41,858 bases of DNA from a bacterium (GCA_043824525.1 JBDRST010000028.1:1-41858); one strand, 5' to 3'. Shown: positions 3,264 through 34,436, counted from the first letter of the stretch. A program made the numbers and translations. Notes: a model not told the origin generated them from the letters alone.

Positions 3264-3351
3264 AATATAGAATCTGGTATTTTGAATAGAATAAAGAATT
3301 AAGAATAAAGGAAGCGCAAAACCAGATATTCTATTTAATTCCGCAGAATTA

Positions 3352-3387
3352 TGCCGATTTCATCGAGCATTCTCGGTAAAGTCGGAA
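3352..3387. repeat. Family-A half copy, intergenic
   Basis: TGCCGATTTCATCGAGCATTCTCGGTAAAGTCGGAA matches the second half of the ileS and NIF3 copies. Confidence 0.55.
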
Positions 3388-20459: not shown

Positions 20460-23400
20460 ATGGCATATAATTTTCCTGAAGAGGAAAATAAAATTTTAAA
20501 ATTTTGGCAGGACAACAAGATTTTTGAAAAAACGCTTGAGAAAATCCCGAAGACAAAGTCGTCGTGGATCCTCGATGCCGATTTGATCGAGCATTCACGA
20601 CAAAGTCGGAATAAAATCGGGACAAAAGGCAAGCGCGCTTTTGTATTTTATGATGGGCCGCCTTTTGCAACAGGCCTTCCTCACTACGGACACATTTTAA
20701 GTTCTGTGGCAAAAGATGTTTTTCCAAGATATAAAACAATGCAGGGTTTTTTTGTAGCTCGCAGATGGGGCTGGGATTGTCATGGGCTTCCGATTGAAAA
20801 CATTGTTGAAAAAGAACTTGGGGTTTCTGGAAAAAAAGACATTGAAGCAAAAATTGGAGTAGAAAAATTTAACCAGACTTGCCGCTCAAAAGTTTTAACC
20901 TATACAAAAGAATGGGAAAAGATGGTGAATAAAATAGGAAGATTTGTTGATTTTGATAATTCATACAAAACAATGAGCTCTGCTTATATGGAGTCGGTTT
21001 GGTGGGCATTAAAAACATTGTGGGACAAAGGGTTAATTTATCAAGGCAAAAAAGTTTTGATGTATTGCCCAAGGTGCGAAACTCCAGTTTCAAAAGCCGA
21101 GGTTGCTATGGATAATAGTTATCAGGATGTTACAGAAGAGGCGGTTACAGTTAAGTTTAAAATAAAAAATCCTGAAAAAAATAATTTGCCTGAAAACACA
21201 TATATTTTAGCTTGGACTACAACTCCCTGGACATTACCAGGAAACGTTTCTTTAGCAGTTGGTGAAAAAATAAAATACGCCTTAGTTCAATCTAATGATG
21301 AAAATTATATTTTAGCTAAAGAAAAAGTGAAGGATGTTTTAAGGGATAAAGAGCATAGAACCACGAAAGAAATATCGGGGAAAGACTTACTTGGATTAGA
21401 ATATGAGCCACTTTATAAAATTGAAGAAGTGAAAAAAACAGGTAAAAAAGTTTGGTATGTTTTACCAGCTGATTTTGTAAACACAGAAGAGGGAACCGGA
21501 GTAGTTCACACAGCAGTAATTTACGGAGAAGATGATTATAATTTGGGAGTTAAGAACGATTTGCCAATGGTGCCTTTGTTAGACAGCAAAGGAATTTTTA
21601 ATGAAGATGCTCCTGATTTGATAAAAGGAAAGTATTTTAAAGACTCAGAAAAAGACATTAAAAATGATTTAGAAAAGAGAGGGCTTCTTTTTGATAAGCA
21701 TAGCAATACCCATCCTTACCCTTTTTGCTGGAGGTGTGGGACACAATTATTTTATAACGCTATTTCTGCTTGGTTTATAAATATCCAAAAACACAAGAAA
21801 AAAATTATAAAACTGAATGAAAAAATAAATTGGCATCCAGAGCATTTAAAGCACGGAAGATTTTTAAATATTTTAAAAGATGCTCCTGATTGGAATATAT
21901 CAAGGAACAGGTATTGGGCAACGCCATTGCCGTTTTTCAAATGCGAGTGCGGGCATACAGAATGCATCGGTTCTGTAAAAGAATTAAAGGAAAAAGCGGT
22001 TAATTTTAGCCAAGTTTACAGCTCAGATAAAATTGAGGATATGGATTTGCACAAAGACAAAATGGATAAAATTGAATTAAGGTGCGAAAAATGCGGTAAA
22101 AAAGCAAAAAGAATTCCAGAGGTTATTGATTGCTGGGTTGAGTCCTCGTCCATGCCGTATGCTGAGCTTCACTATCCTTTTGAAAACACGAGCGAATTTA
22201 AAAAAAGGCTGCCTGCCCAGTATATTGCAGAATATATTGCCCAAACAAGAACATGGTTTTATTATCTGCACGTTTTATCTGTTTTGCTGTTTGGCAAAAT
22301 TTCCTTTGAAAATGTCGTTTCTACTGGCACCGTTTTGAATGAAAAAGGAGAAAAGCTTTCAAAATCAAAACAAAACTTCACAGATCCCTGGATTATAATA
22401 AACCAATATGGAGCAGATGCTTTAAGGTTTTATTTAATGTCGAGTTCTGTAATGCAGTCAGAGGATTTATTTTTTAGCGACAGGGGTGTGAGAGAGAGTT
22501 ATAATAAAGTTATAAATACGCTATCTAATGTTGCGGAATTTTATACAATGTACGCGTCAGAAAACTCAGGCAGTATAAAAATAAATCCGACAAATATTTT
22601 AGATAAGTGGATATTGAGCAGGTTAAACGGCGCCATCTTTGAACTGACTGTTTCAATGGATAAATACGATACTGTAAAGTCTTGCAGAATTATTAAAAAT
22701 TTTATTGAGGAGCTGTCTTTGTGGTATATTAGAAGGTCAAGAGAAAGATTTAAAGAAGATGGCTCGTCCCCCACTAACTTCAAATTAAAAGCAGAAGAAC
22801 AAGGAATGAACTCGAAGTCGGATTTGAAGTTAGTGGGGGATAAAGATAAAAACCAAGCTGGAGCTGTTTTAAGATTAGTGCTGTTAGAGCTTTCAAAAGC
22901 GATAGCTCCCATTTTGCCTTTTACCGCAGAGTATGTTTTTGAAAAAGTAAGGGGCGCGGATAACGCAGAATCAGTGCATTTAGAAGATTGGCCTAAGCAC
23001 AATAAAAAATTTATTAACAAAGACCTTGACGGAAAAATGGACGAGGTAAGAAAAATTGTTAGTTTGTCTTTAGCAGAAAGAGTTTTAAATGGTTTGAAAA
23101 TAAGACAGCCATTAAATAACTTAAAAATCAAAAACGAAAAATCAAAAATTAAGGACGAAAAAGAATTGCTTGTTTTAGTAAAAGACGAGGTGAATGTTAA
23201 AAATATTGATTTTGATGCAAGCATAGAAAAAGAAGTTGAACTTGATGCTAATCTCACAGAGGAGTTAAAGGAGGAAGGCATAATAAGAGAAATAATTAGG
23301 CAAGTACAGGGTGAAAGAAAAAAACAGGGACTGGTACCCCAAGATAAAATTTCTGTAATTATTGCTGGAGATAAATATGTTGTAGATCTAATAGAAAAAA

Positions 23401-23495
23401 ATAAAGATTTTTTACTGAAAACATTCAGAGCAACAGAGATTATCACAGAAAAAGAGGAGGGTGTAAAATTATCTATAGTTATTAAAAAAGTATAA
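20460..23495 (+). CDS. ileS: Isoleucine--tRNA ligase
   Basis: PPFATGLPHYGHIL (HIGH), WDCHGLP, KLSKSK (KMSKS) and zinc-binding CxxC pairs. Carries two in-frame palindromic insertions. Confidence 0.9.
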   Translation: MAYNFPEEENKILKFWQDNKIFEKTLEKIPKTKSSWILDADLIEHSRQSRNKIGTKGKRAFVFYDGPPFATGLPHYGHILSSVAKDVFPRYKTMQGFFVARRWGWDCHGLPIENIVEKELGVSGKKDIEAKIGVEKFNQTCRSKVLTYTKEWEKMVNKIGRFVDFDNSYKTMSSAYMESVWWALKTLWDKGLIYQGKKVLMYCPRCETPVSKAEVAMDNSYQDVTEEAVTVKFKIKNPEKNNLPENTYILAWTTTPWTLPGNVSLAVGEKIKYALVQSNDENYILAKEKVKDVLRDKEHRTTKEISGKDLLGLEYEPLYKIEEVKKTGKKVWYVLPADFVNTEEGTGVVHTAVIYGEDDYNLGVKNDLPMVPLLDSKGIFNEDAPDLIKGKYFKDSEKDIKNDLEKRGLLFDKHSNTHPYPFCWRCGTQLFYNAISAWFINIQKHKKKIIKLNEKINWHPEHLKHGRFLNILKDAPDWNISRNRYWATPLPFFKCECGHTECIGSVKELKEKAVNFSQVYSSDKIEDMDLHKDKMDKIELRCEKCGKKAKRIPEVIDCWVESSSMPYAELHYPFENTSEFKKRLPAQYIAEYIAQTRTWFYYLHVLSVLLFGKISFENVVSTGTVLNEKGEKLSKSKQNFTDPWIIINQYGADALRFYLMSSSVMQSEDLFFSDRGVRESYNKVINTLSNVAEFYTMYASENSGSIKINPTNILDKWILSRLNGAIFELTVSMDKYDTVKSCRIIKNFIEELSLWYIRRSRERFKEDGSSPTNFKLKAEEQGMNSKSDLKLVGDKDKNQAGAVLRLVLLELSKAIAPILPFTAEYVFEKVRGADNAESVHLEDWPKHNKKFINKDLDGKMDEVRKIVSLSLAERVLNGLKIRQPLNNLKIKNEKSKIKDEKELLVLVKDEVNVKNIDFDASIEKEVELDANLTEELKEEGIIREIIRQVQGERKKQGLVPQDKISVIIAGDKYVVDLIEKNKDFLLKTFRATEIITEKEEGVKLSIVIKKV
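20545..20623. repeat. Family-A long-form element in frame near the ileS N-terminus
   Basis: TCCCGAAGACAAAGTCGTCGTGGATCCTCGATGCCGATTTGATCGAGCATTCACGACAAAGTCGGAATAAAATCGGGAC encodes PKTKSSWILDADLIEHSRQSRNKIG. Confidence 0.7.
22767..22840. repeat. Family-D palindromic element in frame in ileS
   Basis: A 19-bp perfect stem pairs TCCCCCACTAACTTCAAAT with ATTTGAAGTTAGTGGGGGA. It encodes SPTNFKLKAEEQGMNSKSDLKLVGD. Confidence 0.8.
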
Positions 23496-25324
23496 TGAAT
23501 TTTTCTGTTTTTTTGACGCGAGACAACATAATATTCTTTTCAATTTTATGCGCGGTTTTAGCTGTTTTTATTTTAATTTTTTTTATTATCTTAAGAGCGA
23601 TTTTTAGGATAATCAAAGCGTTGATTAAAAGATTTTCAAGAAGAAAAGAAGAAGGGCATCCTATGGAGGGAGCGTTGACTGATAAAGGAGAGGATATTTC
23701 GCTTCAAGTTGAGGAATTGGAAAAAAGCAGGAGAGAAACCGCTATGGCTCAAGACAAGGAGCAACCTATGCAGTCTATAAAAACTCCTCCTTTGCAATAT
23801 CATCAGACTACAAAATCGGAAAATAAAGAATTAAAAACCGACGAAGAAAAAGAAAATGAAAAAGAGGGAAAAGATATTGAAGCTAGCCTTGAAAAACTAA
23901 AAAATCCAGACGACACCCCAGAAAAAAAATCCTTTTTAGAGGAGCAGGCAGAAGCGCGGCACGGAGGTTTTTCTATGCCAAAAATTAAGATACCCGTTTC
24001 AAGAAGACATCGGCACGAAGATGCGCCTTCTGCGCTAGAAGAAGAAAAACAACCAGCATCAAAAACGCAAACTGCAGAAGAAAATAAAAAGGTGGAGAAT
24101 GCGCCTGCGCCGCCTGAAGATAAAAATCAAACAGAAGTTAAAAGTAAAACACCGCCTGCTAAGACACAGGTTGCTCAGAAAGACGAAACGGACAAACAAA
24201 TAAAAAATAATTTAACCGCAACCCTAAAACCAAAAGGTGAAGTTCGCCAACCTGCGGACGAATCGCCAATTAACAGGGCAAAAGCCGAAAAAGAATCTGG
24301 CGGGCTGCCAGAAGAAAAAACGCCTCAAGGACAGGTTAAAAAAAATCGGCCGATTCAGCAAAGCGAGACGCATTCAAAAATCCAACCGGCCCAAGAAAAA
24401 GGAATCAGCAATCAAGTAGAAAGAACAGAAGCAGAAAAAGAAGAAATTTCACCGTACAAAAAACCGGATTTTATGAAAGATGAATTAGAAGTTAATGAAA
24501 TAAAAGACAAAAAAGATATTGAGGAAGAATCCTTTTTAGAGGAGCAGTCAAAAATTAGGCTAGAAAAAATATTTGGCAGTGCTCCCGTTTCTCCAAAAAT
24601 CGAAATATCAGTTGCAAAGAAAGATTCACACGACAAACCCGAGCTGGAAAACAACCAAGCTAAAGGTGGGCAACAGGCCGGGGGCTCGCCGCTTAAAAGA
24701 GCGAGGTCGCAGGAAGAGCCATTAGAGCAAGTTGACAGCCAAAAACCAGGGTTACAACCTGCGGGTTATAAAAAAGAAAAAGAAGCGCAGACAAAAGAAG
24801 AAGGAATTCCTTTGTATGAAAAGCCGGATTTTATGAAAGACGAGTTAGGAGTGGGAGAAAGACAAAAAAACAGGAAGGCGGCAAGGAATGGTTCCTCGCC
24901 AATTAACAGGGCAAAAGCTGAAGAAGGAATTCCTTTGTATGAAAAGCCGGATTTTATGAAAGACGAATTGGGCATTGGCGCGAGGCAAAAAGGGGTAAAA
25001 TTGGGTGGGGAGTCTGCATTGTTCGGAAACAAAGAGGAAATTTCTAGAATAGAATTAAGAAGGAAATTAAGAAGAGACTCTGGTATTTGGAAGGCCCAAA
25101 AAGACGTGCGGCTTAATTTAAAGCCAATGGAAAGAGTAAAACTAGAAAAGGAATTTTTTAGCAAGATATATGGAAGGAATATTTCAAAGAAAGATGTAAA
25201 AGTTAATTTGAGGCGCATGGGCAAGGAATGGGCGTCTACGCCAAATTTAAAAAGAAAAGAAACACTAAGAAAGCAGATAAAATTTTTAAAAAACGTCAGC
25301 GGCATAAAAAATCCGTATAAATAA
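23495..25324 (+). CDS. Membrane-anchored, K/E/P-rich low-complexity repeat protein, hypothetical
   Basis: N-terminal TM segment. Internal repeats: EEGIPLYEKPDFMKDELG x2 plus one diverged copy, SPINRAKAE x2, and SFLEEQ x2. There is a basic C-terminal domain. The start overlaps the ileS stop (TAATG). Confidence 0.6.
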   Translation: MNFSVFLTRDNIIFFSILCAVLAVFILIFFIILRAIFRIIKALIKRFSRRKEEGHPMEGALTDKGEDISLQVEELEKSRRETAMAQDKEQPMQSIKTPPLQYHQTTKSENKELKTDEEKENEKEGKDIEASLEKLKNPDDTPEKKSFLEEQAEARHGGFSMPKIKIPVSRRHRHEDAPSALEEEKQPASKTQTAEENKKVENAPAPPEDKNQTEVKSKTPPAKTQVAQKDETDKQIKNNLTATLKPKGEVRQPADESPINRAKAEKESGGLPEEKTPQGQVKKNRPIQQSETHSKIQPAQEKGISNQVERTEAEKEEISPYKKPDFMKDELEVNEIKDKKDIEEESFLEEQSKIRLEKIFGSAPVSPKIEISVAKKDSHDKPELENNQAKGGQQAGGSPLKRARSQEEPLEQVDSQKPGLQPAGYKKEKEAQTKEEGIPLYEKPDFMKDELGVGERQKNRKAARNGSSPINRAKAEEGIPLYEKPDFMKDELGIGARQKGVKLGGESALFGNKEEISRIELRRKLRRDSGIWKAQKDVRLNLKPMERVKLEKEFFSKIYGRNISKKDVKVNLRRMGKEWASTPNLKRKETLRKQIKFLKNVSGIKNPYK

Positions 25325-25332
25325 AGTAAAAA

Positions 25333-26073
25333 GTGGCTAGTTATTATAGAACCAAAGGGTTTGTTTTTAAAAAAATTGACAAGAACGAGTCAGACAGGAT
25401 ATTTTCAATTTTTACCGAGGATTTTGGCCGGCTTGAAATAACAGGAAAAGCCATAAGAAAAATCACTTCAAAATTAAGGTCCGGCATTGATATGTTTTAT
25501 TTATCGGAAGTTGAATTTATCCAGGGAAAGAATATTAGGACCCTTATTAGCGCCGCAAAAATAAAGAAGTTTAAAAATTTGTGCGAAGATCCAAAAAGGT
25601 TAAAAATTACGCTCCAAATTTCAGATGTTTTAGATAATTTTATAAAAGGCCAGGAAAAAGATGAAAAAACCTTTAAATTATTGGAAGAGATTTTAGATAA
25701 CGTATGCTTTAGCGGGTGCAAAATTAATAATTACCAGCTGGCATTCCACTATTTTTTTTGGAATTTTATATCTTTTCAGGGATATCGGTTGGAGGTTTCA
25801 AATTGCGCTGTTTGCCGATGCAAATTAGACCCGTATAATATTTATTTTTCCGGAAAAGAAGGGGGAATCATTTGTGGAAATTGCGCAACGGTAAAAAGGG
25901 ATTATTCTGATTCCCGTCCAAAGATAAATTCAGATGTTGCTAAAATTTTAAGATTGGTTTTAAATAAAGACTGGCAGACCGTTTCCAGATTAAAAATAGG
26001 GCAGACTTCGCAAAACTTACTTGAGAGCATTTTTGAAAACGCCGTACACACATTTTCTCCTGTTCATTCCTAA
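25333..26073 (+). CDS. recO: DNA repair protein RecO (GTG start)
   Basis: OB-fold N-terminus with the YRTKGFVFKKIDKNESDRIFSIFTEDFGRLE pattern and a CxxC...CxxC zinc finger. Confidence 0.8.
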   Translation: MASYYRTKGFVFKKIDKNESDRIFSIFTEDFGRLEITGKAIRKITSKLRSGIDMFYLSEVEFIQGKNIRTLISAAKIKKFKNLCEDPKRLKITLQISDVLDNFIKGQEKDEKTFKLLEEILDNVCFSGCKINNYQLAFHYFFWNFISFQGYRLEVSNCAVCRCKLDPYNIYFSGKEGGIICGNCATVKRDYSDSRPKINSDVAKILRLVLNKDWQTVSRLKIGQTSQNLLESIFENAVHTFSPVHS

Positions 26074-26100
26074 ATCTAAATTCTAGGTTTTTTGATTGAT

Positions 26101-26129
26101 TTGACATAGGTAAGATATTATGCTATGAT
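26101..26129 (+). promoter_or_regulatory. Near-consensus sigma70-type promoter TTGACA-17-TATGAT for the DGR target gene
   Basis: Hexamers at 26101-26106 and 26124-26129. Confidence 0.6.
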
Positions 26130-26178
26130 TAAATATATAGATCTTTATAAAATTATTCGAGTCCGTCAACTGACGGAG

Positions 26179-26233
26179 GCAGTCACAGCCAGAAGTAACT
26201 AATAATTGGTTGGTGTTTTCTGGCTGTGACTGC
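26179..26233 (+). promoter_or_regulatory. 16-bp perfect hairpin in the ~140-nt 5' leader of the DGR target gene
   Basis: GCAGTCACAGCCAGAA (26179-26194) pairs with TTCTGGCTGTGACTGC (26218-26233). It is preceded by the hairpin TCCGTCAACTGACGGA (26162-26177). Confidence 0.5.
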
Positions 26234-26276
26234 TACTTCGGCGGTCAAGCAAACCTCTTTTATGAAGGAGCTGACC

Positions 26277-26888
26277 ATGAGTCGGCTAGCGCTCTGCGAT
26301 GCAAGTGGACCGCTGACAGACCTCCTGCAAAAAATGTCGGGAGAAGATGGCGGGCAATGGAACCGGGCATTGACCAAGTTTCTCCGTAAGGAGAATCCTT
26401 GGTCTGTCTGGCGAACCGTAGTGCTCGGTGGTTTCAAGTCTGCTCAGGATTTTCTGGTGGCCTTTGAAGGGGAGAGTATTTATGTCAGCGATTGGGCCAA
26501 GAACATTATGTCTAAGCCCGAGTTTGCCCAGTCGCTCGTAAACGTGGATCCCAACGAGGAGTTTGACTTAGAGGATCATTCAGTGGAAGAGCTTGTGAGC
26601 GAATGCCGGAACGCGAGTACTGCGGAGGTGTTTGTCGGCGCTTACAAGCTCGGGCTGGAGGACTGTCCTCCGTGGATCGGTCCCAAACTCCGGCTGGATT
26701 ACAGAAACCAACCGAAGGGAGAATGTCGATTTATCGGCATGAAGCCTCTGTTTGCCTCCCACGGCGATCCGGACGTTTTCTGCGTGGGGCGCTATGGGTC
26801 CGAGCTGTGGCTGAGCTCCAACTATGCCCGTCCCGGCGACTTGTGGGATCCCGTCGTTCGCTGGTTGTTCCGCCGCCCCCGCAAGTAA
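26277..26888 (+). CDS. DGR variable (target) protein, function unknown, GC-rich
   Basis: An AAGGAG SD lies 6 nt before the ATG at 26277. The C-terminal ~44 codons are the VR. No signal peptide or TM segment is evident. Confidence 0.75.
   Translation: MSRLALCDASGPLTDLLQKMSGEDGGQWNRALTKFLRKENPWSVWRTVVLGGFKSAQDFLVAFEGESIYVSDWAKNIMSKPEFAQSLVNVDPNEEFDLEDHSVEELVSECRNASTAEVFVGAYKLGLEDCPPWIGPKLRLDYRNQPKGECRFIGMKPLFASHGDPDVFCVGRYGSELWLSSNYARPGDLWDPVVRWLFRRPRK
26749..26881 (+). other. DGR variable region (VR) with GC-rich IMH-like 3' end
   Basis: 133-nt match to 27278-27410 at a constant offset of 529 nt, with no gaps. There are 17 mismatches, and every one is an A in the other copy. The 3' end is CCGCCGCCCCCG. 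Confidence 0.9.
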
Positions 26889-26965
26889 TCTTCGTTTCTG
26901 CCCTTGGACATTTGGAATTCTGTTCGCTGTCTAGCAAATTGGATTCTTGGTTCTTTGGCGAAGTT

Positions 26966-27010
26966 ATCCCTGTCTTCGCAGTTGCGAAGATAGGGATTTT
27001 ATTTTTTTCT
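26966..27010 (+). terminator. Rho-independent terminator of the target gene
   Basis: ATCCCTGTCTTCGCA-GT-TGCGAAGATAGGGAT stem followed by TTTTATTTTTTT. Confidence 0.7.
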
Positions 27011-27277
27011 AAAAATGTTATTATAAATTTGGATAGTAGGCCAATATGTCCGCGGTTAGTATTTGTTCTGTTAAGAAAGTATGCGGAAACGTAGGCTTTG
27101 GGCGGCCGAATTCTGAATTTCAGGGAAGCGCAGAATTTCGGAGGTTACGACTTCTGGGAGAGTCGCACCTGATTTGCTAAAAAACGAAGATACTTGGTGT
27201 AAAATGTTAAATTAATTGTACAGCTCAAAGAGCATTCAATGGGCAGTGGCGCAGATGACATTTTACGCATTTTTGCT

Positions 27278-27410
27278 TGTTTGACTCCAACGGCGATCCG
27301 AACGTTTTCTACGTGAAGCGCAATGAGTCCAAGCTGTGGCTGAACACCAACTATGCCCATCCCGACAACTTGTGGAATCCCGTCATTCACTGGTTGTTCC
27401 GCCGCCCCCG
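27278..27410 (+). other. DGR template repeat (TR)
   Basis: This copy carries the adenines, with AAC/AAT/AAG codons at the variable positions. It does not lie in a full-length ORF: there is an in-frame TGA 9 codons upstream. Confidence 0.9.
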
Positions 27411-27429
27411 TAACTCTCTTTGTTTTTTT

Positions 27430-27452
27430 CCACCTTTTTTGAGGTGGTTTTT
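27430..27452 (+). terminator. Hairpin plus T run 20 nt after the TR; possible 3' end of the TR RNA
   Basis: CCACCT-TTTTTG-AGGTGG-TTTTT. It overlaps the stop codon of the minus-strand avd-like gene. Confidence 0.5.
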
Positions 27453-27780
27453 AATTCAGCGATTTTATCCATCCGCCCAGCATTTTACCAACTTCATTTA
27501 ATTTTTCAGAAATCCTTATGTATTTTTTATTATCCAATGACTTTATATCCCAAGCAATTTGCAGAAAAAATTTAAGCAGGTCTAATTTCACAGAAGCCCT
27601 TTTCAGAAAAATTTGTTTTTCTATTTTGTCAGAATACCTTGCCTTTATTATGTTTTCTATCGTTTCTAAAAACAAAGAGTCTATTTTAGAGCCCAATGTA
27701 TATCGAGAATTCTTTGGAAAATCGTCCAAAAACCTTTGCCACATTTTATATGCCGCAACCAACTTTTGCGTTATTGCCAA
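27451..27780 (-). CDS. avd: Four-helix-bundle protein (23S rRNA IVS protein / Avd family); DGR accessory variability determinant candidate
   Basis: ...YKMWQRFLDDFPKNSRYTLGSKIDSLFLETIENII.A......K...L..AS.KLDLLKFFLQIAW......KKY..ISEKL.EVGKMLGGWIKS. Only a TTG start is available. It is oriented opposite to the TR. Confidence 0.7.
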   Translation of the reverse strand: MAITQKLVAAYKMWQRFLDDFPKNSRYTLGSKIDSLFLETIENIIKARYSDKIEKQIFLKRASVKLDLLKFFLQIAWDIKSLDNKKYIRISEKLNEVGKMLGGWIKSLN

Positions 27781-27781
27781 A

Positions 27782-27976
27782 TTAAACTGGCTGGGGGGGG
27801 GAATTAGTTGGGTAAACTTTTTTGACTACAGAGTTTTAAGGACCAAAACCAGAAACAGAATGCTAAAGAGGGTAGAGAAAAATCCAAATTCAGAAACAAT
27901 AAACTCTTATATTGGATTATTAAAACATGGAAGTTGCCAAAAACTGAAGCAAAAGATTTTACGGGCTTTTTGTTGA
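27782..27976 (+). pseudogene. C-terminal remnant resembling the thumb / C-terminus of a DGR-type reverse transcriptase
   Basis: WVNFFDYRVLRTKTRNRMLKRVEK...INSYIGLLKHGSCQKLKQKIL resembles the (F/L)LG(Y/C)RV...R.R..R and SY.GH.KHA....L motif pair at RT C-termini. There are no finger or palm motifs, and the upstream part of the track ORF is antisense to avd. Confidence 0.35.
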
Positions 27977-28008
27977 ATAAATAAGAAAATTTGATATACT
28001 AAAATCAT

Positions 28009-28416
28009 ATGGAAAAAATAGATTTAACAACGATAACTCCTATATTGGAAAAAATCTTTCGGAAAAAGAAAGCGGTTTTATTTTGTTATGTTTTCGGCTC
28101 ATTTGCCTATCAGAACTTCAATTCAGAGAGCGATGTTGATATAGCTGTTTATATGGATAAAGCAAGAGTAAGCGATTTTTTTGATGAACGACTGGAATTG
28201 ATTTCAGAAATTTCCCAGGCGTTGGGAAAAGAAGCGGATATTTTGGTTTTGAATAGCACTCCTCCTTTTTTAAAGTATGTTGTTTTGAAAGAGGGAAAGT
28301 TAATTTTTAGCAGAGATGAAAGCAAGAGAATTGATTTTGAGCTAAAAACAACGAATGAGTATTTTGATTTTAGATTTGTTTTAGAAAAATATAACAAACG
28401 TATGATGAAGCTATGA
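28009..28416 (+). CDS. mntA: MntA-type minimal nucleotidyltransferase (antitoxin of HepT/MntA type VII TA)
   Basis: GSFAYQNFNSESDVDIAVY (GS...DxD) motif. The 4-nt overlap with the next gene suggests an operon. Confidence 0.75.
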   Translation: MEKIDLTTITPILEKIFRKKKAVLFCYVFGSFAYQNFNSESDVDIAVYMDKARVSDFFDERLELISEISQALGKEADILVLNSTPPFLKYVVLKEGKLIFSRDESKRIDFELKTTNEYFDFRFVLEKYNKRMMKL

Positions 28417-28844
28417 CTTCATTAACCCGACAAAAAATTTTAGAGAAACTGGAAAATTTTCAGGAATATCTGAACTATATTTCTCAGCTAAAAAAAGAGG
28501 CGAAAAGCGAAAAGGTTTTTTTGTCTGATTTTCATTTGTTTGGCAATACCGAGAGGTATTTGCAGTTATCGATACAAATAATAGTTGATGTTTCTCATTT
28601 GCTTATAATTGATTTAGGGTTGGAAAGACCCAAAGATAATTATGAGGCAATTTCAATTATTTACGCGCATAAAATAATTTCAGAGAAAATGGTGAATAAA
28701 CTGATAAAAATGGTCGGATTGAGGAATCTATTGGTTCACGAATACGGGAAAATAGACAGAAAGAAAATATACAAAATTTTAAAAGAGCAAACGGAAGACC
28801 TTAAAAATTTTAAAAAACAAGTTATTAAATTTATTGGAAAATGA
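28413..28844 (+). CDS. hepT: HepT (DUF86) HEPN-domain RNase toxin
   Basis: The RNLLVHEYGKID motif matches the R-x4-H-x-Y HEPN motif. Confidence 0.75.
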   Translation: MTSLTRQKILEKLENFQEYLNYISQLKKEAKSEKVFLSDFHLFGNTERYLQLSIQIIVDVSHLLIIDLGLERPKDNYEAISIIYAHKIISEKMVNKLIKMVGLRNLLVHEYGKIDRKKIYKILKEQTEDLKNFKKQVIKFIGK

Positions 28845-30496
28845 ATAAAAAACTGCTTTTTATTATCCTGCTGGGCGTTGTAATCATTGGAGTGGTCGCC
28901 TTTTGGCTTTACAGGGAAAGCATGTTTTCAAAAGAAATTTTGCGTTTGGATATTTTAGGTCAAGATAATGCAAAGGCGGGAGAGGAAATAGAATACACCG
29001 TAAAATATAAAAATAACGGAAATTTTGTTTTAGAAAACCCAATCCTTATTTTTGATATGCCCGAAAACTCTTTAACCGAGGACAGCAGAACAAGGATAAC
29101 CCAGGACTTAGACGACATATACCCCGGCGGAGAAGAGGTAGTAAAAATTAAAACGCGACTTTTGGGGAAAGAGGGGGACCTAAAGACAGCTAAAGCATCA
29201 ATTTCCTATACGCCCAAAAATTTGACTGTAAGATACGAATCAACTACCAGTTTTACCACAAAAATTGAGACGGTTGCCGTTACTCTGGATTTTGACCTGC
29301 CTTCAAAAACTGAAAAAGGAAAGGCCCTGCAATACGCAATTAACTATTTTTCCAACATTGATTATCCGCTGGAAGACCTTGGCTTAAAAATTACTCCATT
29401 GGACGGTTTTGACATCGAGTCATCAGACCCCGCATCCTTGGACGGCTCTGAATGGAGGTTGCAATCTTTAAATAAAGCTGAAGGAGGCAGGGTTAATATT
29501 AAGGGTCTGGTTTTGGCAGATGCCGGGCAATCCTTAAATTTTTTTGCCCAGCTTGGAATATGGCAAAATGGAAATTTTATTGCCATAAAAGAAGCGCAAA
29601 AAAACGTGGAGGTTATCCAGCCGTTGCTGTTTATATCCCAGCAGGTCAATGGTTCTGCGTCCTATATTGCTTCACCCGGCGAAACTTTGCGCTACCAGAT
29701 TTTTTTCAGAAACATAGGAACCACGCCTTTTGATGATTTATTTATGGTTGTAAAATTGGACGGACAGGCCTTAGACATGTCCACAATACAGGTGCAGGGC
29801 GGGCAAGTAAGCGATAATATGATTGTTTTAGACCACAGGCAGGTTCCTCAATTAAGGCACTTGGATGAGCAAGAAGAGGGCGAGGTTGTTTTTTATGTAA
29901 AAGTAAAAAACGACTGGAACCCCTCTGGTTCAGAGGAAAGCAATACCGTAATAACAGACGAAGTTAATATATCCCAAATTACTCAAAAGTTTGAAATAAA
30001 AGTAAATTACGGCCTAGTGATTTCCCAAAAAGGGTATTACAAAAGTCCGGATATTGAAAACTTGGGTCCTATTCCGCCAAAAACAGGGGAAGCCACCACA
30101 TATACAATAACCTGGGATATAAAAAACTTTTTTAACGACGCCAAAAATGTCAAAGTAAAAGCAATGTTGCCTGAAAACGTAAATCTAACAGGTAAAATTG
30201 TTCCCTCTAACGAGTCATCAAGCTTTTCGTTTGATTCTGCCAGCCGTGAAATTGTTTGGTCAGCTGGAGATATTTTGGCTGGCGAAGGCTTGAGAGGAAA
30301 CCCGCATTCAATTTCTTTTCAGGTGTCTTTGACGCCTTCGGGCTCGCAAAGAGGCTCTGCAGCGCCCTTAATAGGCAGGGCGCAGATTTCAGGGGAAAAT
30401 CAATTTACAAGCACAATAATTTCAGCTCAAGATTCAGGCATTAACACAAGCTTGCCAGATGACTTTATTAATTCCGGGGGAGGGATAGTGCAATAA
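28841..30496 (+). CDS. Membrane-anchored surface protein with DUF11/CARDB-like beta-sandwich repeats
   Basis: N-terminal TM segment. Repeated A/PGE.(I/L).Y...(Y/F).N.G blocks (GEEIEYTVKYKNNGN, GETLRYQIFFRNIGT, GEATTYTITWDIKN). Confidence 0.6.
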   Translation: MNKKLLFIILLGVVIIGVVAFWLYRESMFSKEILRLDILGQDNAKAGEEIEYTVKYKNNGNFVLENPILIFDMPENSLTEDSRTRITQDLDDIYPGGEEVVKIKTRLLGKEGDLKTAKASISYTPKNLTVRYESTTSFTTKIETVAVTLDFDLPSKTEKGKALQYAINYFSNIDYPLEDLGLKITPLDGFDIESSDPASLDGSEWRLQSLNKAEGGRVNIKGLVLADAGQSLNFFAQLGIWQNGNFIAIKEAQKNVEVIQPLLFISQQVNGSASYIASPGETLRYQIFFRNIGTTPFDDLFMVVKLDGQALDMSTIQVQGGQVSDNMIVLDHRQVPQLRHLDEQEEGEVVFYVKVKNDWNPSGSEESNTVITDEVNISQITQKFEIKVNYGLVISQKGYYKSPDIENLGPIPPKTGEATTYTITWDIKNFFNDAKNVKVKAMLPENVNLTGKIVPSNESSSFSFDSASREIVWSAGDILAGEGLRGNPHSISFQVSLTPSGSQRGSAAPLIGRAQISGENQFTSTIISAQDSGINTSLPDDFINSGGGIVQ

Positions 30497-30505
30497 TAAT
30501 TTACT

Positions 30506-31078
30506 ATGGTTCCATCAAAAATGTTTTTTACCAAAGGCGTTGGTATTGCCAGGCAGCAATTAATGTCTTTTGAGATGGCGTTGAGAGACGCGGGCATTGA
30601 AAAATTTAATTTAGTTTCAGTTTCCAGTATTTTGCCACCGGGCTGCAAAAGAATTCCAAAGGAAAAAGGGCTGGAAGCTCTAAAGCCGGGTGAGGTTGTA
30701 TATTGTGTTATGGCAAGGAATTCAACAAACGAGCCAAATCGGTTGATAGCAGCTTCCATAGGATGCGCTGTTCCAGCCGGCAATCAAGAGCAGTACGGCT
30801 ATTTATCAGAACATCATCCGTACGGTGAAACAGACGAAAAAGCAGCAGACTGCGCCGAGGACTTAGCGGCCACGATGCTGGCAACAACTCTGGGAATTGA
30901 ATTTGATCCTGACACGGCTTGGGACGAAAGAGAAAACGTTTATAAGCTCTCAGGAAAGATTGTAACAACAACAAATATAACTCAATCTGCGCAGGGAAAT
31001 AAAGATGGCTTATGGACAACAGTTGTCGCGGCTGCCGTATTTGTGTCCGCAGAAAATTTAAATGACAAAGAAAACTAA
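30506..31078 (+). CDS. pdaD: Pyruvoyl-dependent arginine decarboxylase
   Basis: FFTKGVG......SFE.AL.DAGI..FNLV.VSSILPP with the self-cleavage Ser-Ser site. Confidence 0.8.
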
Positions 31079-32087
31079 AAAAAATCTTCTTAAAACTCCG
31101 ATTAAGCACATTGATATAAAATCGTTTGACTCAAGGCGCATTATTGAATCTATGGCAGGCATGTCTTTTACAGCTCGCGATTTAGCGCGGGCTTCAGAAA
31201 TTTATGACATGATGATAAAGGATAAAGGGTGCGCTATTTTTTTAGCTATTGCGGGTTCAACAAGTAGCGCGGGGTGTATGCAGATATACGTTGATTTGGT
31301 AAAAAACAATATGGTTGACGCCATAATAGCCACAGGAGCCAGCATTGTTGATATGGATTTTTTTGAGGCATTGGGCTTTAGGCATTATAAGGGCAGCCCG
31401 AACATTGATGATAATCTTTTAAGAAAATTATATATAGACAGGATTTACGACACCTTTATAGATGAAGAGGAGCTTCAGGCATGCGACCAGACAGTAAAGA
31501 GAATTGCTGATTCCCTTGAACCAAGACCGTATTCTTCAAGAGAATTTATTTCAAAAATGGGGGAATATCTTATAACGCATTCTAAAAAAAAGGACTCCTT
31601 GGTTGAAGTCGCCTTTAAAAACAATGTTCCTATTTTTTGCCCTGCCTTTTCTGATTCAAGCGCTGGATTTGGTTTGGTGCGCCATCAATGGGAAAATCCC
31701 GGCAAACATGTTTCCATTGACTCTGTAAAGGATTTTTTGGAGCTGACAAAGATTAAAATTAAAGCAAAGGCATCCGGCGTTCTAATTATTGGTGGAGGCG
31801 TGCCCAAAAATTTTATACAGGACACAGTTGTTGCAGCTGAAATTTTAGGGTTTGATGTTCCAATGCACAAATACGCGGTTCAGATTACAGTGGCTGACGC
31901 AAGAGATGGCGCCTGCTCTTCTTCAACATTAAAAGAAGCAAGCTCTTGGGGAAAAGTAAAACAAGGTTATGATCAGATGGTTTATGCTGAAGCAACATCA
32001 GTTTTGCCGTTATTGTCAAGCTACGCATACCATAAGGGGAATTGGAAAAAACGCAAACGTAAAAATTTCAGTAAGATTTTTTTATGA
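31062..32087 (+). CDS. Deoxyhypusine synthase family protein (DHS-like)
   Basis: [24 protein letters not shown] and the catalytic-lysine block EASSWGKV. Confidence 0.75.
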
Positions 32088-32965
32088 AAAATTTCGGGAA
32101 TTTTTTAAATATCGCCCCCCAATATTCTCAGTTTAAAAAATCAAAAGCAGTGATTACGCCCTTTTCATATGAGGCATCCACGAGTTATAAAACAGGCGCC
32201 AAATACGGGCCTAAAGCCATAATTTCCGCCTCCTCTCAGGTAGAATTGTTTGACGAGGAGCTGAAAAAAGAAGTTTACAAAAGAGTAGGCGTTTGCACCA
32301 TTACAGAACCAAAACCTAAAAGGGGCGATAATTTTTATCTGCCCTTATCAAAAAAAATTAATGAAATAATTTCTTTAAATAAATTTCCTGTTATTTTAGG
32401 GGGAGAGCATACAATTGCCTTCGGCGCTTTAATGGGGGTCAAGGAGGTTTATAAAAATTTTTCGGTTTTGCATTTTGACGCCCACGCAGATTTAAGGGAC
32501 AGCTTTGAGGGTAATAAGTTTTCCCATTCTTGCGTGATGAGGCGCGCTCAAGAATTAAAGGAAGTTAAAAATATAGTGCAGGTTGGCATAAGAAACATCA
32601 GTAACGAGAAAAAAGAGGGGAGCGAATTTGATTTTTTTAAAAAAAATCCGCAGCAAATAAAAATTTTTTGGGCAAAGGATAAGAACAATTGGAAAATTAA
32701 CGATATTTTAAATAATCTGGCAAAGGATGTTTATTTGACTTTTGACGTTGATGTTTTTGATCCCTCAATAATGCCGTCGACCGGAACGCCTGAACCCGGC
32801 GGTTTATACTGGCAAGAAGTTTTAGATATTTTAAAACAGGTTTTTTTAAAGAAAAATATTATTGCCGCAGATGTGGTTGAGCTTTGCCCTATAAAAAACT
32901 TTCCTGCGCCGGATTTTATGACAGCTAAACTCATATATAAGATGATAGGGTATAAGTTTTTATAA
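32084..32965 (+). CDS. speB: Agmatinase (ureohydrolase family)
   Basis: GGEHTI, HFDAHADLRD, LTFDVDVFDPS and GTPEPGGL manganese-ligand motifs. Confidence 0.8.
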   Translation: MKNFGNFLNIAPQYSQFKKSKAVITPFSYEASTSYKTGAKYGPKAIISASSQVELFDEELKKEVYKRVGVCTITEPKPKRGDNFYLPLSKKINEIISLNKFPVILGGEHTIAFGALMGVKEVYKNFSVLHFDAHADLRDSFEGNKFSHSCVMRRAQELKEVKNIVQVGIRNISNEKKEGSEFDFFKKNPQQIKIFWAKDKNNWKINDILNNLAKDVYLTFDVDVFDPSIMPSTGTPEPGGLYWQEVLDILKQVFLKKNIIAADVVELCPIKNFPAPDFMTAKLIYKMIGYKFL

Positions 32966-32986
32966 AGCAAAAGGAAGTTAGTAGTA

Positions 32987-33010
32987 AACCCCCCTTTTTA
33001 GGGGTTTTTG
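32987..33010 (+). terminator. Rho-independent terminator
   Basis: AACCCC pairs with GGGGTT and is followed by TTT. Confidence 0.5.
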
Positions 33011-33059
33011 AGTTGAAATTCTTTTTTTTTCAGAGTAAGATAAACTAATTTAACATAAT

Positions 33060-34436
33060 ATGGCAAAAGAACAAAAAAATAATTCTATGGAGAAAATTGT
33101 GTCTTTGTGCAAAAGAAGAGGTTTTGTGTTTCCGGGGTCTGAAATATATGGAGGGTTGGCGAACAGTTATGATTATGGACCTTTGGGAGTTGAATTAAAA
33201 AATAATATAAAAAATCTTTGGTGGAAAAGGTTTGTACACGATAGAAATGATATTGTGGGTATTGATGCCGCTTTAATAATGAATCCAAAAGTTTGGGAAG
33301 CAAGCGGTCATTTAGATACTTTTAACGACCCTTTAGTTGAATGCAAAAAATGCCATCATAGGTTTCGCGCCGATCAGATTAAAGCCAACCCTCCTTCGTC
33401 CGCGACTTCTGTCGGGACTACGGCGGGGCAAGGAAAATGTCCGGACTGTGGCGGAGAAATTACGAAACCAAAACAATTTAATTTAATGCTTAAAACTTTT
33501 TTAGGGCCTGTTGAAGATGCTGAAAACACAGTATATTTTAGACCGGAAACCGCCCAGGCAATGTTTGTTGATTTTAAAAATGTTTTAACAACTTCAAGAA
33601 AAAAAATTCCTTTTGGCATAGCGCAAATTGGAAAGGCATTCAGAAACGAAATAACCCCCGGAAATTTTATATTTCGTACCCGCGAGTTTGAGCAAATGGA
33701 AATAGAATATTTTACCAAAGAGAAGGATTGGGAAAAAACTTTTGAAATGTGGCAAAAAGAAATGTGGAAATGGATGACAGATGAACTTGGGTTAGATAAA
33801 AAAAATATTCATGAGTTGGACGTGCCAGAAAACGAGAGGGCTCATTATTCTAAAAAAACAATTGATTTTGAATACGATTTTCCATTTGGCAGAGAGGAGC
33901 TTTATGGCTTAGCTTACAGAACTGATTTTGATTTAAAAAATCATTTTAAGGAGCCGCCATATGAAGACGCTGAAGCCGGTGAAAAATTTTACCCGCACGT
34001 TATAGAGCCAACATGGGGAGTGGATAGATCTGTTTTAGCTGTGCTATGTGAGGCATACACAGAAGAACCCGCCTCCGCCGAAAACGGCTCCGGCGAGGCA
34101 AGGAAAGACAGGGTTGTTTTAAAGCTTCCAGCAAAACTGGCTCCTTATAAAGTTGCGGTATTTCCTCTTTTAAAAAATAAGCCGGAGTTGGTGAAGAAAG
34201 CTCAAGACATATATCACGACCTAAAAAAAGAATTTACGGTTGCTTTTGACGACAGGGGAAATATCGGAAAGAGATATTACAGCCAGGACGAAATTGGCAC
34301 ATTCAAAGCAGTTACTGTGGATTTCCAAACCTTAGATGATAACACCGTAACTGTCCGCGACCGCGATACAATGAAGCAAGAAAGAATAAAAATTTCTGAA
34401 CTCTCAAACCTTTTAAAAGACAGGCTAAATGGCTGA
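33060..34436 (+). CDS. glyQS: Glycine--tRNA ligase (homodimeric class II type)
   Basis: GSEIYGGLANSYDYGPLG, FRPETAQ, FRNEITPGNFIFRTREFEQME and GVDR motifs. Confidence 0.9.
   Translation: MAKEQKNNSMEKIVSLCKRRGFVFPGSEIYGGLANSYDYGPLGVELKNNIKNLWWKRFVHDRNDIVGIDAALIMNPKVWEASGHLDTFNDPLVECKKCHHRFRADQIKANPPSSATSVGTTAGQGKCPDCGGEITKPKQFNLMLKTFLGPVEDAENTVYFRPETAQAMFVDFKNVLTTSRKKIPFGIAQIGKAFRNEITPGNFIFRTREFEQMEIEYFTKEKDWEKTFEMWQKEMWKWMTDELGLDKKNIHELDVPENERAHYSKKTIDFEYDFPFGREELYGLAYRTDFDLKNHFKEPPYEDAEAGEKFYPHVIEPTWGVDRSVLAVLCEAYTEEPASAENGSGEARKDRVVLKLPAKLAPYKVAVFPLLKNKPELVKKAQDIYHDLKKEFTVAFDDRGNIGKRYYSQDEIGTFKAVTVDFQTLDDNTVTVRDRDTMKQERIKISELSNLLKDRLNG
33388..33432. repeat. Family-E element in frame in glyQS
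   Basis: ACCCTCCTTCGTCCGCGACTTCTGTCGGGACTACGGCGGGGCAAGG encodes PPSSATSVGTTAGQG, between RADQI and CPDCG. Confidence 0.55.
34068..34103. repeat. Family-E element in frame in glyQS
   Basis: CCCGCCTCCGCCGAAAACGGCTCCGGCGAGGCAAGG encodes PASAENGSGEAR. Confidence 0.55.

What the first reader, a model, noticed from the sequence alone, without database searches (positions are those of the whole stretch)
26749..27410. Diversity-generating retroelement: 133-nt VR/TR pair in which 17 of 17 mismatches are TR adenines
Seen in the sequence: 26749-26881, the last ~44 codons of the GC-rich gene 26277-26888, aligns without gaps to 27278-27410 at a constant offset of 529 nt. I counted 17 mismatches. At every one the downstream copy has A and the gene copy has C, G or T (for example TR AAC/AAC/AAG/AAT/GAG/AAG/AAC-ACC/CAT/GAC-AAC/AAT/ATT-CAC against VR CAC/GAC/GGG/TAT/GGG/GAG/AGC-TCC/CGT/GGC-GAC/GAT/GTT-CGC). 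There is no non-A difference. Homology stops sharply after a G/C-only run, CCGCCGCCCCCG, shared by both copies. Established knowledge: adenine-specific TR-to-VR mutagenic homing, AAY codons in the TR and a GC-rich IMH at the VR 3' end define DGRs (the Bordetella phage BPP-1 paradigm). Inference: the element has been active recently, because no random drift is visible. The variable protein has no obvious signal peptide. I also could not see the usual C-type-lectin-fold ending expected of DGR targets, so the VR scaffold may be an unusual one.
Basis: partly seen in the sequence, partly recalled or inferred. Interest (0 to 1): 0.85.

Follow-up and report, generated by a model that had tools for sequence, protein, structure and literature searches.

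The report
Diversity-generating retroelement missing its reverse transcriptase
The repeat pair is a genuine diversity-generating retroelement (a protein hypermutation cassette) in a Patescibacteria genome, but about 270 codons of its reverse transcriptase gene are deleted, so it is probably a recently disabled copy of an already known kind of element.

Summary
Window 26749-26881 and 27278-27410 align without gaps, with 17 mismatches. All 17 are A in the downstream copy, and all fall at codon positions 1 or 2 of gene 26277-26888 (p about 2e-14). An Avd accessory gene lies on the minus strand (27451-27780). A covarying structured RNA flanks the template repeat, and a conserved hairpin follows the variable repeat. 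It is therefore a DGR.

Only its last ~58 codons remain (27803-27976), and no RT motif occurs anywhere in the 41.8 kb. Intact relatives in other Patescibacteria share the known order target, TR, (avd), RT. Alignment to one relative shows about 865 nt of RT deleted, just after a conserved poly-G tract. A second assembly has the same junction and the same VR. Close relatives have decayed in other ways.

The cassette is most likely a recently disabled DGR with a frozen variable region. Rescue by an RT elsewhere in the genome is not excluded.

The target belongs to a large family with no Pfam model. Its confident predicted fold has only weak matches, mostly C-type lectin domains.

Verdict: new member of a known kind, modest interest.

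The parts
26101..26129 (+). Promoter-like site upstream of the target gene (TTGACA, 17 nt spacer, TATGAT)
   Evidence: 11 of 12 consensus matches. This is a consensus match only; no function was tested.
26179..26243 (+). Long perfect hairpin in the 5' leader of the target gene
   Evidence: 18-bp stem, z-score -6.8; both arms are conserved in L011, L012, L002 (second target) and L013. Its role is unknown.
26277..26888 (+). DGR target gene (variable protein, 203 aa). It is GC-rich (0.56) in a 0.37 GC genome and has a Shine-Dalgarno GAAGGAG at 26264-26270
   Evidence: the family has at least 6768 50%-identity cluster representatives at E<=1e-3; no Pfam model. AlphaFold pLDDT 94.4 and 97.5. GC content.
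26749..26881 (+). Variable repeat (VR), codons 158-202. It ends in the GC-only run CCGCCGCCCCCG (26870-26881), the presumed core of the IMH (initiation of mutagenic homing site)
26895..26963 (+). Conserved long imperfect hairpin 3' of the VR, with TTGG repeats at 26904, 26912, 26939, 26947 and 26955. It is a candidate target-recognition stem-loop
   Evidence: the element is present downstream of the stop codon in 10 of 13 family loci, including targets that have no adjacent cassette.
26966..26997 (+). Intrinsic terminator of the target gene
   Evidence: 14-bp stem followed by a T-run.
27031..27277 (+). Structured 5' leader of the TR RNA. An extended -10-like TGTTATTAT lies at 27016-27024 (my reading)
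   Evidence: in 6 loci, 94.8% of cells are paired against about 45% in the slid controls. 34 pairs changed on both sides against 5-10 in the controls, and 0 of 500 shuffles reached the observed values; no Rfam family matches.
27179..27190 (+). 5' strand (AAAAAACGAAGA) of the long-range duplex that closes the TR. It pairs with 27417-27428
   Evidence: (helix 6): C-G changes to U-A, and G-U changes to G-C or A-U, in relatives. This is the analogue of the 'cPRT Stop duplex' in Handa et al., bioRxiv 10.1101/2023.10.23.563531.
27278..27410 (+). Template repeat (TR), with 28 adenines
27417..27428 (+). 3' strand (TCTTTGTTTTTT) of the TR-closing duplex
27430..27447 (+). Stem-loop plus T-run just 3' of the TR. 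It is the terminator of the TR RNA and a candidate Avd-binding stem-loop
   Evidence: a hairpin with different sequences sits at this position in all 6 loci. Handa et al. report such stem-loops just downstream of the TR.
27451..27780 (-). avd (accessory variability determinant), 109 aa from a TTG start, or 97 aa from the ATG at residue 13
   Evidence: above the curated cut-offs of both Pfam bAvd and NCBIfam DivGenRetAVD; 65-69% identical to the Avd of intact cassettes.
27793..27808 (.). Remains of the avd-RT intergenic region (G9 then AATTAG) and the deletion junction
   Evidence: the window is colinear with L012 up to 27797 and resumes at 27809 opposite L012 position 3344. A poly-G run is present in all four intact relatives, and AATTAG or a close variant follows it in three.
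27803..27976 (+). Remnant of the DGR reverse transcriptase: the last ~58 codons plus the stop codon. The fingers and palm, including YADD, are absent
   Evidence: tblastn with intact RTs from L002 and L004 aligns only their residues 269-326 and 273-328, E 2e-11 and 1e-12; no Y-x-D-D motif in six frames of the window.

Best explanation
This is a chromosomal diversity-generating retroelement of the Patescibacteria type, with the order target(VR), TR, (avd, reverse strand), RT. In its working form, a roughly 400-nt RNA is transcribed. It consists of a structured leader, the TR closed by a long-range duplex, and a terminal stem-loop. The RT-Avd complex copies the TR into cDNA and misincorporates opposite adenines. 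The cDNA then replaces the last 45 codons of the target gene, guided by the shared GC-rich end and probably by the conserved hairpin 3' of the VR. The 17 A-to-N differences are the product of that process (inferred from the pattern and from the BPP-1 paradigm, not shown here). In this genome a deletion of about 865 nt, starting just after the conserved poly-G/AATTAG of the avd-RT intergenic region, removed RT codons 1 to about 270 and most of that intergenic region. The cassette therefore can no longer make cDNA on its own. The VR is most likely frozen in its last diversified state. The other parts still look intact, which suggests that the loss is recent.
For: TR/VR statistics and codon positions. 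Avd. RT remnant only. No RVT_1 appears among the genes called on the independent contig L001.

Architecture of relatives with a full-length RT: L002, L004, L006, L007, L016 and L017 all have Avd on the minus strand, and its start lies 46-58 nt from the RT start in L002, L004, L006 and L007. Breakpoints come from the colinear alignment with L012.

An independent Logan assembly of SRR26275509 (L001, 8936 nt) is 99.989% identical and has the same junction and the same VR.

Other family loci are decayed or incomplete in different ways. L011 lost the TR, avd and RT codons 1-104, and its RT remnant has a stop codon and lacks YADD. L012 has a frameshifted avd, a stop at RT codon 9 and 2 non-A TR/VR differences. 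L013 and L014 have the target alone.

The RNA elements are conserved with covariation. No protein in the 5.8-billion-sequence collection shares enough words with the remnant to suggest a near-identical intact RT.
Against: There is no sign of decay after the deletion. There are zero non-A TR/VR differences. The avd reading frame is full length. The 58-codon RT remnant is still open, and its DNA identity to L012 (71%) equals that of the flanks (72.6%). This fits a very recent loss, but it fits continued use with an RT supplied in trans equally well.

Genomes of this clade often carry several cassettes. One 222-kb contig has three RTs and one 46-kb contig has two. Only about 42 kb of this genome was available, and no reads were available to test VR heterogeneity.
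Confidence: 0.68

Rival explanations
1. The cassette is still active as a non-autonomous DGR. Its TR RNA and Avd are served in trans by the RT of another DGR cassette elsewhere in the same genome.
For: Multi-cassette genomes are common in this clade. Two RTs lie on the 46-kb contig (P0166, P0248) and three on the 222-kb contig (P0167, P0214, P0225). Co-resident RTs are 70-75% identical, about as close as orthologues from different genomes (77%). The TR, leader RNA, avd and VR-flanking hairpin show no decay.
Against: Co-resident cassettes are of different types. Their Avds are about 46% identical, their targets are unrelated or 30% identical, and each has its own RT, so cross-service has no support. 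No RT occurs in 41.8 kb. The deletion also removed most of the avd-RT intergenic region, which may hold the avd promoter (inference). The VR is identical in the two assemblies. No RT with the MAG's locus-tag prefix ABIJ84 appeared among the 120 listed RT homologues, but that list is far from complete.
Confidence: 0.2
2. The RT deletion is an assembly artefact or a minority or strain-specific allele, and the real dominant genome has a complete DGR.
For: The junction lies at a G9 homopolymer, a sequence that is error-prone in sequencing and assembly. Metagenome assemblies collapse strain variation.
Against: Two assemblies made by different pipelines (the GenBank MAG contig and the Logan contig L001) agree base for base across the junction. 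The poly-G/AATTAG motif is a native feature of intact relatives, not an artefact. The Logan contig runs 8.9 kb through the site without a break. The two assemblies may, however, derive from the same reads.
Confidence: 0.08
3. The repeat is an ordinary duplication or a chance similarity, not a DGR product.
For: None beyond the absence of an RT.
Against: The chance that all 17 differences fall on TR adenines is 1.7e-14, and all are at codon positions 1 or 2. Avd is adjacent. The same arrangement with intact RTs occurs in relatives, where 10/10, 19/19, 18/19 and 26/27 TR/VR differences are at TR adenines.
Confidence: 0.01

Closest known systems
Bordetella phage BPP-1 DGR (mtd-avd-TR-brt), the mechanistic paradigm
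   Same: Adenine-specific TR-to-VR differences at codon positions 1 and 2. The VR is at the 3' end of the target ORF. Both repeats share a GC-rich end. An Avd is present. A duplex between sequences upstream and downstream of the TR, and a stem-loop just 3' of the TR, match those described by Handa et al. (bioRxiv 10.1101/2023.10.23.563531). A hairpin lies 3' of the VR (Guo et al. 2011, PMC3240598; role cited from my own knowledge, since only the abstract was seen).
   Different: The element is chromosomal, not on a phage. avd is on the opposite strand, between the TR and the RT. The TR RNA ends at its own terminator about 40 nt after the TR, so most of the conserved structured RNA lies 5' of the TR, rather than in a 140-nt 3' spacer that continues into the RT gene. 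The VR-flanking hairpin is about 65 nt long with TTGG repeats, not a short GC stem. In this window the RT is deleted.
CPR/Patescibacteria DGRs: Architecture B3 'TR-(avd)-RT' of Wu et al. 2018 (PMC5758913) and DGR clade 2 of Roux et al. 2021 (PMC8144416)
   Same: The gene order and avd orientation of the intact relatives match. All genome hits are Patescibacteria. The target has no recognisable domain or transmembrane segment, as both papers report for CPR targets. Several cassettes per genome are common.
   Different: The window copy lacks the RT, so it would not be counted by RT-anchored surveys. I could not check whether its VR belongs to one of Wu et al.'s 'UVR1-6' classes, because no supplement is held.
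C-type-lectin-fold DGR variable proteins (Mtd, TvpA, AvpA, TaqVP) and the Bd2740 C-terminal domain
   Same: The VR occupies the C-terminal beta-strands and loop of a compact alpha/beta domain of about 160 aa. Most of the top 20 Foldseek PDB hits are C-type lectin domains. The best is Bd2740, a Ca-free C-type lectin variant whose trimer resembles Mtd.
   Different: All matches are below significance (best E 0.07, TM 0.33-0.53). None of the solved DGR variable proteins appears in the top 50. There is no Pfam FGE-sulfatase, DUF1566 or other match in 124 members. An extra N-terminal two-helix module (residues 1-42) is shared with proteins that have other C-termini.

Membership tests
Diversity-generating retroelement (DGR) | TR/VR near-repeat whose differences are at TR adenines | tested here: met
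   17 of 17 differences at TR adenines, p = 1.7e-14.
Diversity-generating retroelement (DGR) | VR lies inside the 3' end of an ORF, with substitutions at codon positions 1 and 2 (AAY-type codons in the TR) | tested here: met
   All 17 substitutions are at position 1 or 2. The TR encodes 7 Asn codons (AAC or AAT).
Diversity-generating retroelement (DGR) | A DGR-clade reverse transcriptase encoded in the cassette | tested here: not met
   Only the last ~58 codons remain (27803-27976). No YxDD motif and no other tblastn hit occur in 41.8 kb. Relatives have a 327-337 aa RT with YADD at this position.
Diversity-generating retroelement (DGR) | Avd accessory protein (present in about 74% of DGRs; Wu et al. 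2018) | tested here: met
   NCBIfam NF033474: 86 bits against a cut-off of 80. Pfam PF22296: 66.9 bits against a cut-off of 40.
Diversity-generating retroelement (DGR) | GC-rich IMH at the VR 3' end, with a diverged counterpart (IMH*) at the TR 3' end | tested here: met
   CCGCCGCCCCCG is shared, and the sequences diverge immediately after it: CAAGTAATC in the VR against TAACTCTCT in the TR. Function was not tested.
Diversity-generating retroelement (DGR) | Stem-loop or cruciform 3' of the VR | tested here: met
   A conserved ~65-nt hairpin at 26895-26963 is found in 10 of 13 family loci. It starts 14 nt after the repeat, and it is longer than the BPP-1 hairpin.
Diversity-generating retroelement (DGR) | TR-flanking RNA elements: an upstream/downstream duplex and a stem-loop just 3' of the TR (Handa et al. 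preprint) | tested here: met
   An 11-12 bp duplex (27179-27190 with 27417-27428) shows compensatory changes. A hairpin lies at 27430-27447. The leader helices covary.
Diversity-generating retroelement (DGR) | Ongoing VR diversification within the population | not testable with these tools
   No reads were available. The VR is identical in the MAG contig and the Logan contig, but these may come from the same sample.
C-type lectin fold DGR variable protein | The VR is carried by a CLec-fold domain | tested here: inconclusive
   The models are confident (pLDDT 94.4 and 97.5). Foldseek finds no hit at E<=1e-3, but the weak hits are mostly CLec domains, led by Bd2740 with probability 0.66-0.77.
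Architecture B3, TR-(avd)-RT (Wu et al. 2018) | Order TR, reverse-strand avd, RT | tested here: met
   The order and strands are as in L002, L004, L007, L012, L016 and L017. In the window the RT member is only a remnant.

The most novel reading that the evidence does not exclude
The RT-less module (target-VR, structured TR RNA, Avd) is maintained and still diversifies, because an RT from a different DGR cassette in the same small genome serves it in trans. This would make it a non-autonomous 'satellite' DGR. RT-anchored surveys would then systematically miss such modules. It would also mean the conserved leader RNA, rather than linkage to the RT gene, determines which template an RT uses.
Probability: 0.18. 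Interest if true: 0.6.

Novelty: new member of a known kind. Interest (0 to 1): 0.3.

Why it matters
As a DGR this is expected. Patescibacteria are the bacterial group most enriched in DGRs, and both the TR-(avd)-RT order and the unannotated targets are already described.

Three things are of some use.

(1) It is a natural RT knock-out with every other part intact, sitting among relatives that decayed in other ways. This shows that these cassettes are gained and lost quickly. It also shows that searching for TR/VR pairs finds elements that RT-anchored searches miss.

(2) The comparison defines the non-coding parts of this cassette type: a covarying leader of about 250 nt 5' of the TR, the TR-closing duplex, and a long TTGG-repeat hairpin 3' of the VR. 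None of these is in Rfam.

(3) The target family is very large (thousands of 50%-identity clusters), has no Pfam model, and gives a confident model with no significant PDB neighbour. That makes it a good candidate for structure determination.

Tried and rejected
- An exact look-up of the Avd protein in public contigs found nothing on record for the 109-aa TTG-start form.
- A search with the 60-aa RT remnant for a near-identical intact RT found no candidate sharing enough words.
- The first genome-contig scan with the 15-sequence alignment failed for lack of conserved stretches. It was repeated with 7 sequences. The source MAG is not among the GTDB representatives.
- Rfam at a permissive threshold over 25900-28100 gave only a spurious snoRNA hit below its cut-off.
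- A profile search against PDB sequences gave nothing below E 0.17.
- Pfam on all 124 family members gave only scattered single chance hits.
- Foldseek against viral structures gave nothing meaningful.
- Re-modelling the core domain alone (residues 44-203) did not sharpen the fold assignment.
- I looked for an RT from the same MAG (locus-tag prefix ABIJ84) among RT homologues. None appeared in the 120 listed of at least 8000, so this is uninformative.
- I tried to place the VR in Wu et al.'s UVR classes, but no supplements are held.
- I compared the L011 VR with the window TR to look for adenine-only differences between genomes. The lineages are too diverged (77% nucleotide identity, 11 of 23 differences at non-A positions) to be informative.
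- I considered and rejected the idea that the 152-aa ORF at 27518-27976 encodes anything. Its first two thirds are merely antisense to avd and have no RT similarity.

Full report
**1. The observation**

Reading the sequence, a pairwise alignment, the repeat finder and a direct count all agree. Window 26749-26881 and 27278-27410 are a 133-nt ungapped direct repeat at an offset of 529 nt, with 17 differences. At each difference the downstream copy has A, and the upstream copy has G (13), C (2) or T (2). The downstream copy has 28 A in 133 nt, so the hypergeometric chance that all 17 differences land on A is 1.7e-14. All 17 lie at codon position 1 or 2 of ORF 26277-26888, and the repeat covers codons 158-202 of 203. 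Both copies end with CCGCCGCCCCCG, after which they diverge. It is the only such pair in the window.

**2. What surrounds it**

On the minus strand, 40 nt after the template repeat, ORF 27451-27780 is an Avd. It scores 86 bits on NCBIfam DivGenRetAVD (cut-off 80) and 66.9 bits on Pfam bAvd (cut-off 40).

Immediately beyond it, the plus-strand frame 27803-27976 reads like the tail of a DGR reverse transcriptase. I tested this with intact RTs taken from related loci. tblastn aligns only their residues 269-326 and 273-328 to the window (E 2e-11 and 1e-12), and nothing else in the 41.8 kb. A six-frame scan finds no Y-x-D-D motif anywhere. The genes after the remnant are a MntA/HepT toxin-antitoxin pair and housekeeping genes. 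The window therefore holds a target with VR, a TR, an avd and the 3' stump of an RT.

**3. Relatives show what the complete element looks like**

The target protein has 18 word-index homologues. A profile search found at least 6768 50%-identity cluster representatives at E<=1e-3. All six genome hits are Patescibacteria: Saccharibacteria, Magasanikbacteria, Vogelbacteria and unclassified members.

Loci with a full-length RT (L002, L004, L006, L007, L016, L017) share one design. Where the TR lies within the fetched locus, a leader of about 270 nt precedes it. A short spacer with a hairpin follows the TR, then avd on the reverse strand. A 327-337 aa RT with YADD lies on the forward strand, and in L002, L004, L006 and L007 its start is 46-58 nt from the avd start. 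The target sits before or after this unit, or on both sides in L002. This is 'Architecture B3, TR-(avd)-RT' of Wu et al. 2018 (PMC5758913). Patescibacteria-restricted cellular DGRs form clade 2 of Roux et al. 2021 (PMC8144416). TR/VR differences in the relatives are also at TR adenines: 10/10, 19/19, 18/19 and 26/27.

**4. The lesion**

The window is colinear with L012 (target 60% identical, Avd 84%) from 26216 to 27797. It resumes at 27809 opposite L012 position 3344. About 865 nt are therefore missing, comprising RT codons 1 to about 277 in L012 numbering plus most of the avd-RT intergenic region.

The left breakpoint follows a poly-G run and AATTAG (27793-27807). The poly-G run, 8-11 G long, is present in all four intact relatives examined, and AATTAG or a close variant follows it in three of them.

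A Logan assembly of run SRR26275509 (L001, 8936 nt) is 99.989% identical to window 24937-33872. It differs only at 30821, so it has the same junction and the same VR. The window itself is a 41,858-nt GenBank MAG contig (protein MFH1967998.1, locus tag ABIJ84_01270). A pure assembly artefact is thus unlikely, although both assemblies may derive from the same reads.

**5. Decay is recurrent in this lineage**

- L011, the closest relative (target 74% identical), goes from the target terminator straight into RT residue 105. Its RT remnant has an internal stop and lacks the YADD region. The TR and avd are gone.
- L012 has a frameshifted avd, a stop at RT codon 9 and two non-A TR/VR differences.
- L013 and L014 have the target only; L005 and L008 also lack an RT or Avd hit within the fetched flanks.

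The window's lesion is not nested in L011's, so these are independent events.

**6. The non-coding parts are intact and conserved**

I aligned the leader, TR and spacer of six loci. RNAalifold predicts 96 pairs, 33 of them with compensatory changes. On that structure 94.8% of cells pair, against 43-49% when partners are slid by 1-3 columns. 34 pairs show changes on both sides against 5-10 in the slid controls, and 0 of 500 shuffles reach any observed measure. A caveat applies: the structure was derived from this same alignment, and there are only six sequences.

A long-range helix joins AAAAAACGAAGA (27179-27190) to TCTTTGTTTTTT (27417-27428), enclosing the TR. Relatives show C-G changed to U-A, and G-U changed to G-C or A-U. 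The window's own minimum-free-energy fold contains the same helix. This matches the 'cPRT Stop duplex' (pairing of sequences upstream and downstream of the TR, 13 bp on average). The hairpin at 27430-27447 matches the 'Avd-binding stem-loop just downstream of TR'. Handa et al. report both for 207 of 278 Avd-containing DGRs, drawn from taxa that include CPR (bioRxiv 10.1101/2023.10.23.563531).

Unlike BPP-1, the RNA ends at its own terminator about 40 nt after the TR. Most of the conserved structure lies 5' of the TR. No Rfam family matches.

Downstream of the VR, after the stop codon, a ~65-nt imperfect hairpin rich in TTGG repeats (26895-26963) is conserved in 10 of 13 loci, including targets with no adjacent cassette. 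It is followed by the target gene's terminator at 26966-26997. It is the obvious candidate for the target-recognition stem-loop known from BPP-1 (PMC3240598).

**7. The variable protein**

There is no Pfam or NCBIfam hit for it, no Pfam family for any of 124 relatives, and no PDB sequence match.

AlphaFold with a 124-sequence alignment gives pLDDT 94.4 (pTM 0.83) for the whole protein and 97.5 (pTM 0.91) for residues 44-203. The model has a two-helix N-terminal module and an alpha/beta domain. The last three strands and the loop between them carry the VR.

Foldseek finds nothing at E<=1e-3 in PDB or BFVD. However, most of the top 20 PDB hits are C-type lectin domains. The best is the Bdellovibrio Bd2740 tip domain (probability 0.66-0.77, TM 0.53 on the target). 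Its authors describe it as a Ca-free C-type lectin variant whose trimer resembles Mtd (PMC10769870). I therefore rate the CLec assignment as probable but unproven. This agrees with Roux et al., who expected the unannotated CPR targets to be new C-Lec variants.

Family-wide, the columns at the window's TR-adenine codons are far more variable than the others (2.94 against 1.62 bits, p = 4.6e-6). The same positions are hypervariable throughout the family, as expected if they are diversified by DGRs.

**8. How it most likely works, and its present state**

Shown here: the adenine-specific repeat pair, the Avd, the RNA architecture, the RT deletion, and the intact design in relatives.

Inferred from the BPP-1 paradigm: RT-Avd copies the TR RNA with misincorporation at A, and the cDNA replaces the VR.

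The cassette has no RT, so it cannot do this by itself. The lack of any decay is compatible with a very recent loss. There are zero non-A differences, which bounds neutral divergence since the last homing to less than about 1.4%. avd is full length. The RT stump is still open and is no more diverged from L012 than its flanks.

The lack of decay is equally compatible with trans service by another cassette's RT. Such co-resident cassettes are common in this clade (two or three RTs per contig). However, they are of different types, with about 46% Avd identity and unrelated targets, and each has its own RT.

My weights are 0.68 for a recently disabled relic, 0.20 for a trans-served module, 0.08 for an assembly or strain artefact, and about 0.01 for chance.

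**9. Novelty and verdict**

The element is a DGR of a described architecture, in the phylum where DGRs are most common, with a described class of unannotated target. The specific copy is new and is degenerate.

The points of interest are the natural RT deletion with all else intact, the recurrent decay in relatives, the defined non-coding elements, and a very large target family absent from Pfam that lacks a significant structural neighbour.

A specialist would not be surprised. Interest 0.3; new member of a known kind.

Noticed in passing
window 4354-4420, 11209-11258, 20541-20627, 40671-40720 (partial copy at 3351-3387): A palindromic repeat of about 50-90 nt (core ...AAAATCCCGA...TCGAGGATCCTCGA...ATCGGGA...) occurs at least four times. 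Each copy lies in frame inside a housekeeping ORF: a NIF3-like protein, a PolX-type DNA polymerase, isoleucyl-tRNA synthetase (aa 28-56, just before the catalytic domain) and a TatD DNase. They look like in-frame palindromic-element insertions of the kind known from Rickettsia (my comparison, not tested).
   Followed up: partly
window 26179-26243: A perfect 18-bp hairpin (z-score -6.8) lies in the ~140-nt leader of the target gene, between a strong promoter-like site (26101-26129) and the Shine-Dalgarno sequence. Both arms are conserved upstream of targets in L011, L012, L002 (second target) and L013. It is absent upstream of L004, L015 and the first target of L002, which instead have a different, AT-rich upstream sequence. 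It may regulate target expression.
   Followed up: partly
window 27793-27801; L002, L004, L006 and L007 avd-RT intergenic regions: A poly-G tract lies between the divergent avd and RT starts in every relative examined. Its length varies (8, 9, 10, 11 and 9 G). A homopolymer of that length in a 37% GC genome could act as a slipped-strand on/off switch for the cassette.
   Followed up: no
window 26277-26888; targets in L002, L004, L005, L012 and L013: The whole target gene, not only the VR, has 53-61% GC in genomes of 36-43% GC. The avd and RT genes have host-like GC or lower (29-36%). This is a family trait with no explanation so far.
   Followed up: partly
window 26277-26402 (residues 1-42); P0016, P0017, P0018; L010 1217-1342: The N-terminal two-helix module (MSRLALCDxSGPLTDLLQKLSGEDGEQW...LRKENPW) is 71-78% identical to the N-termini of proteins whose C-terminal parts are unrelated to this family and also have no Pfam hit. 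Many family members lack the module. It looks like a shared docking or localisation module.
   Followed up: partly
window 28009-28844: A type VII toxin-antitoxin pair, MntA (adenylyltransferase antitoxin) and HepT (RNase toxin), lies directly after the RT remnant. It is absent from the syntenic locus L004.
   Followed up: no
window 23495-25324: A 609-aa Lys/Glu-rich low-complexity protein has an N-terminal hydrophobic segment and internal 72-nt repeats (24437-24508, 24797-24868, 24920-24991). It has no confident Pfam match. A 307-aa gene with no recorded Pfam hit occupies the same position between ileS and recO in L004.
   Followed up: no
L002 8001-8615 and 10725-11360: One intact relative has two paralogous targets flanking a single TR-(avd)-RT unit. 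Both match the one TR, with differences mostly at TR adenines (19/19 and 16/20).
   Followed up: partly
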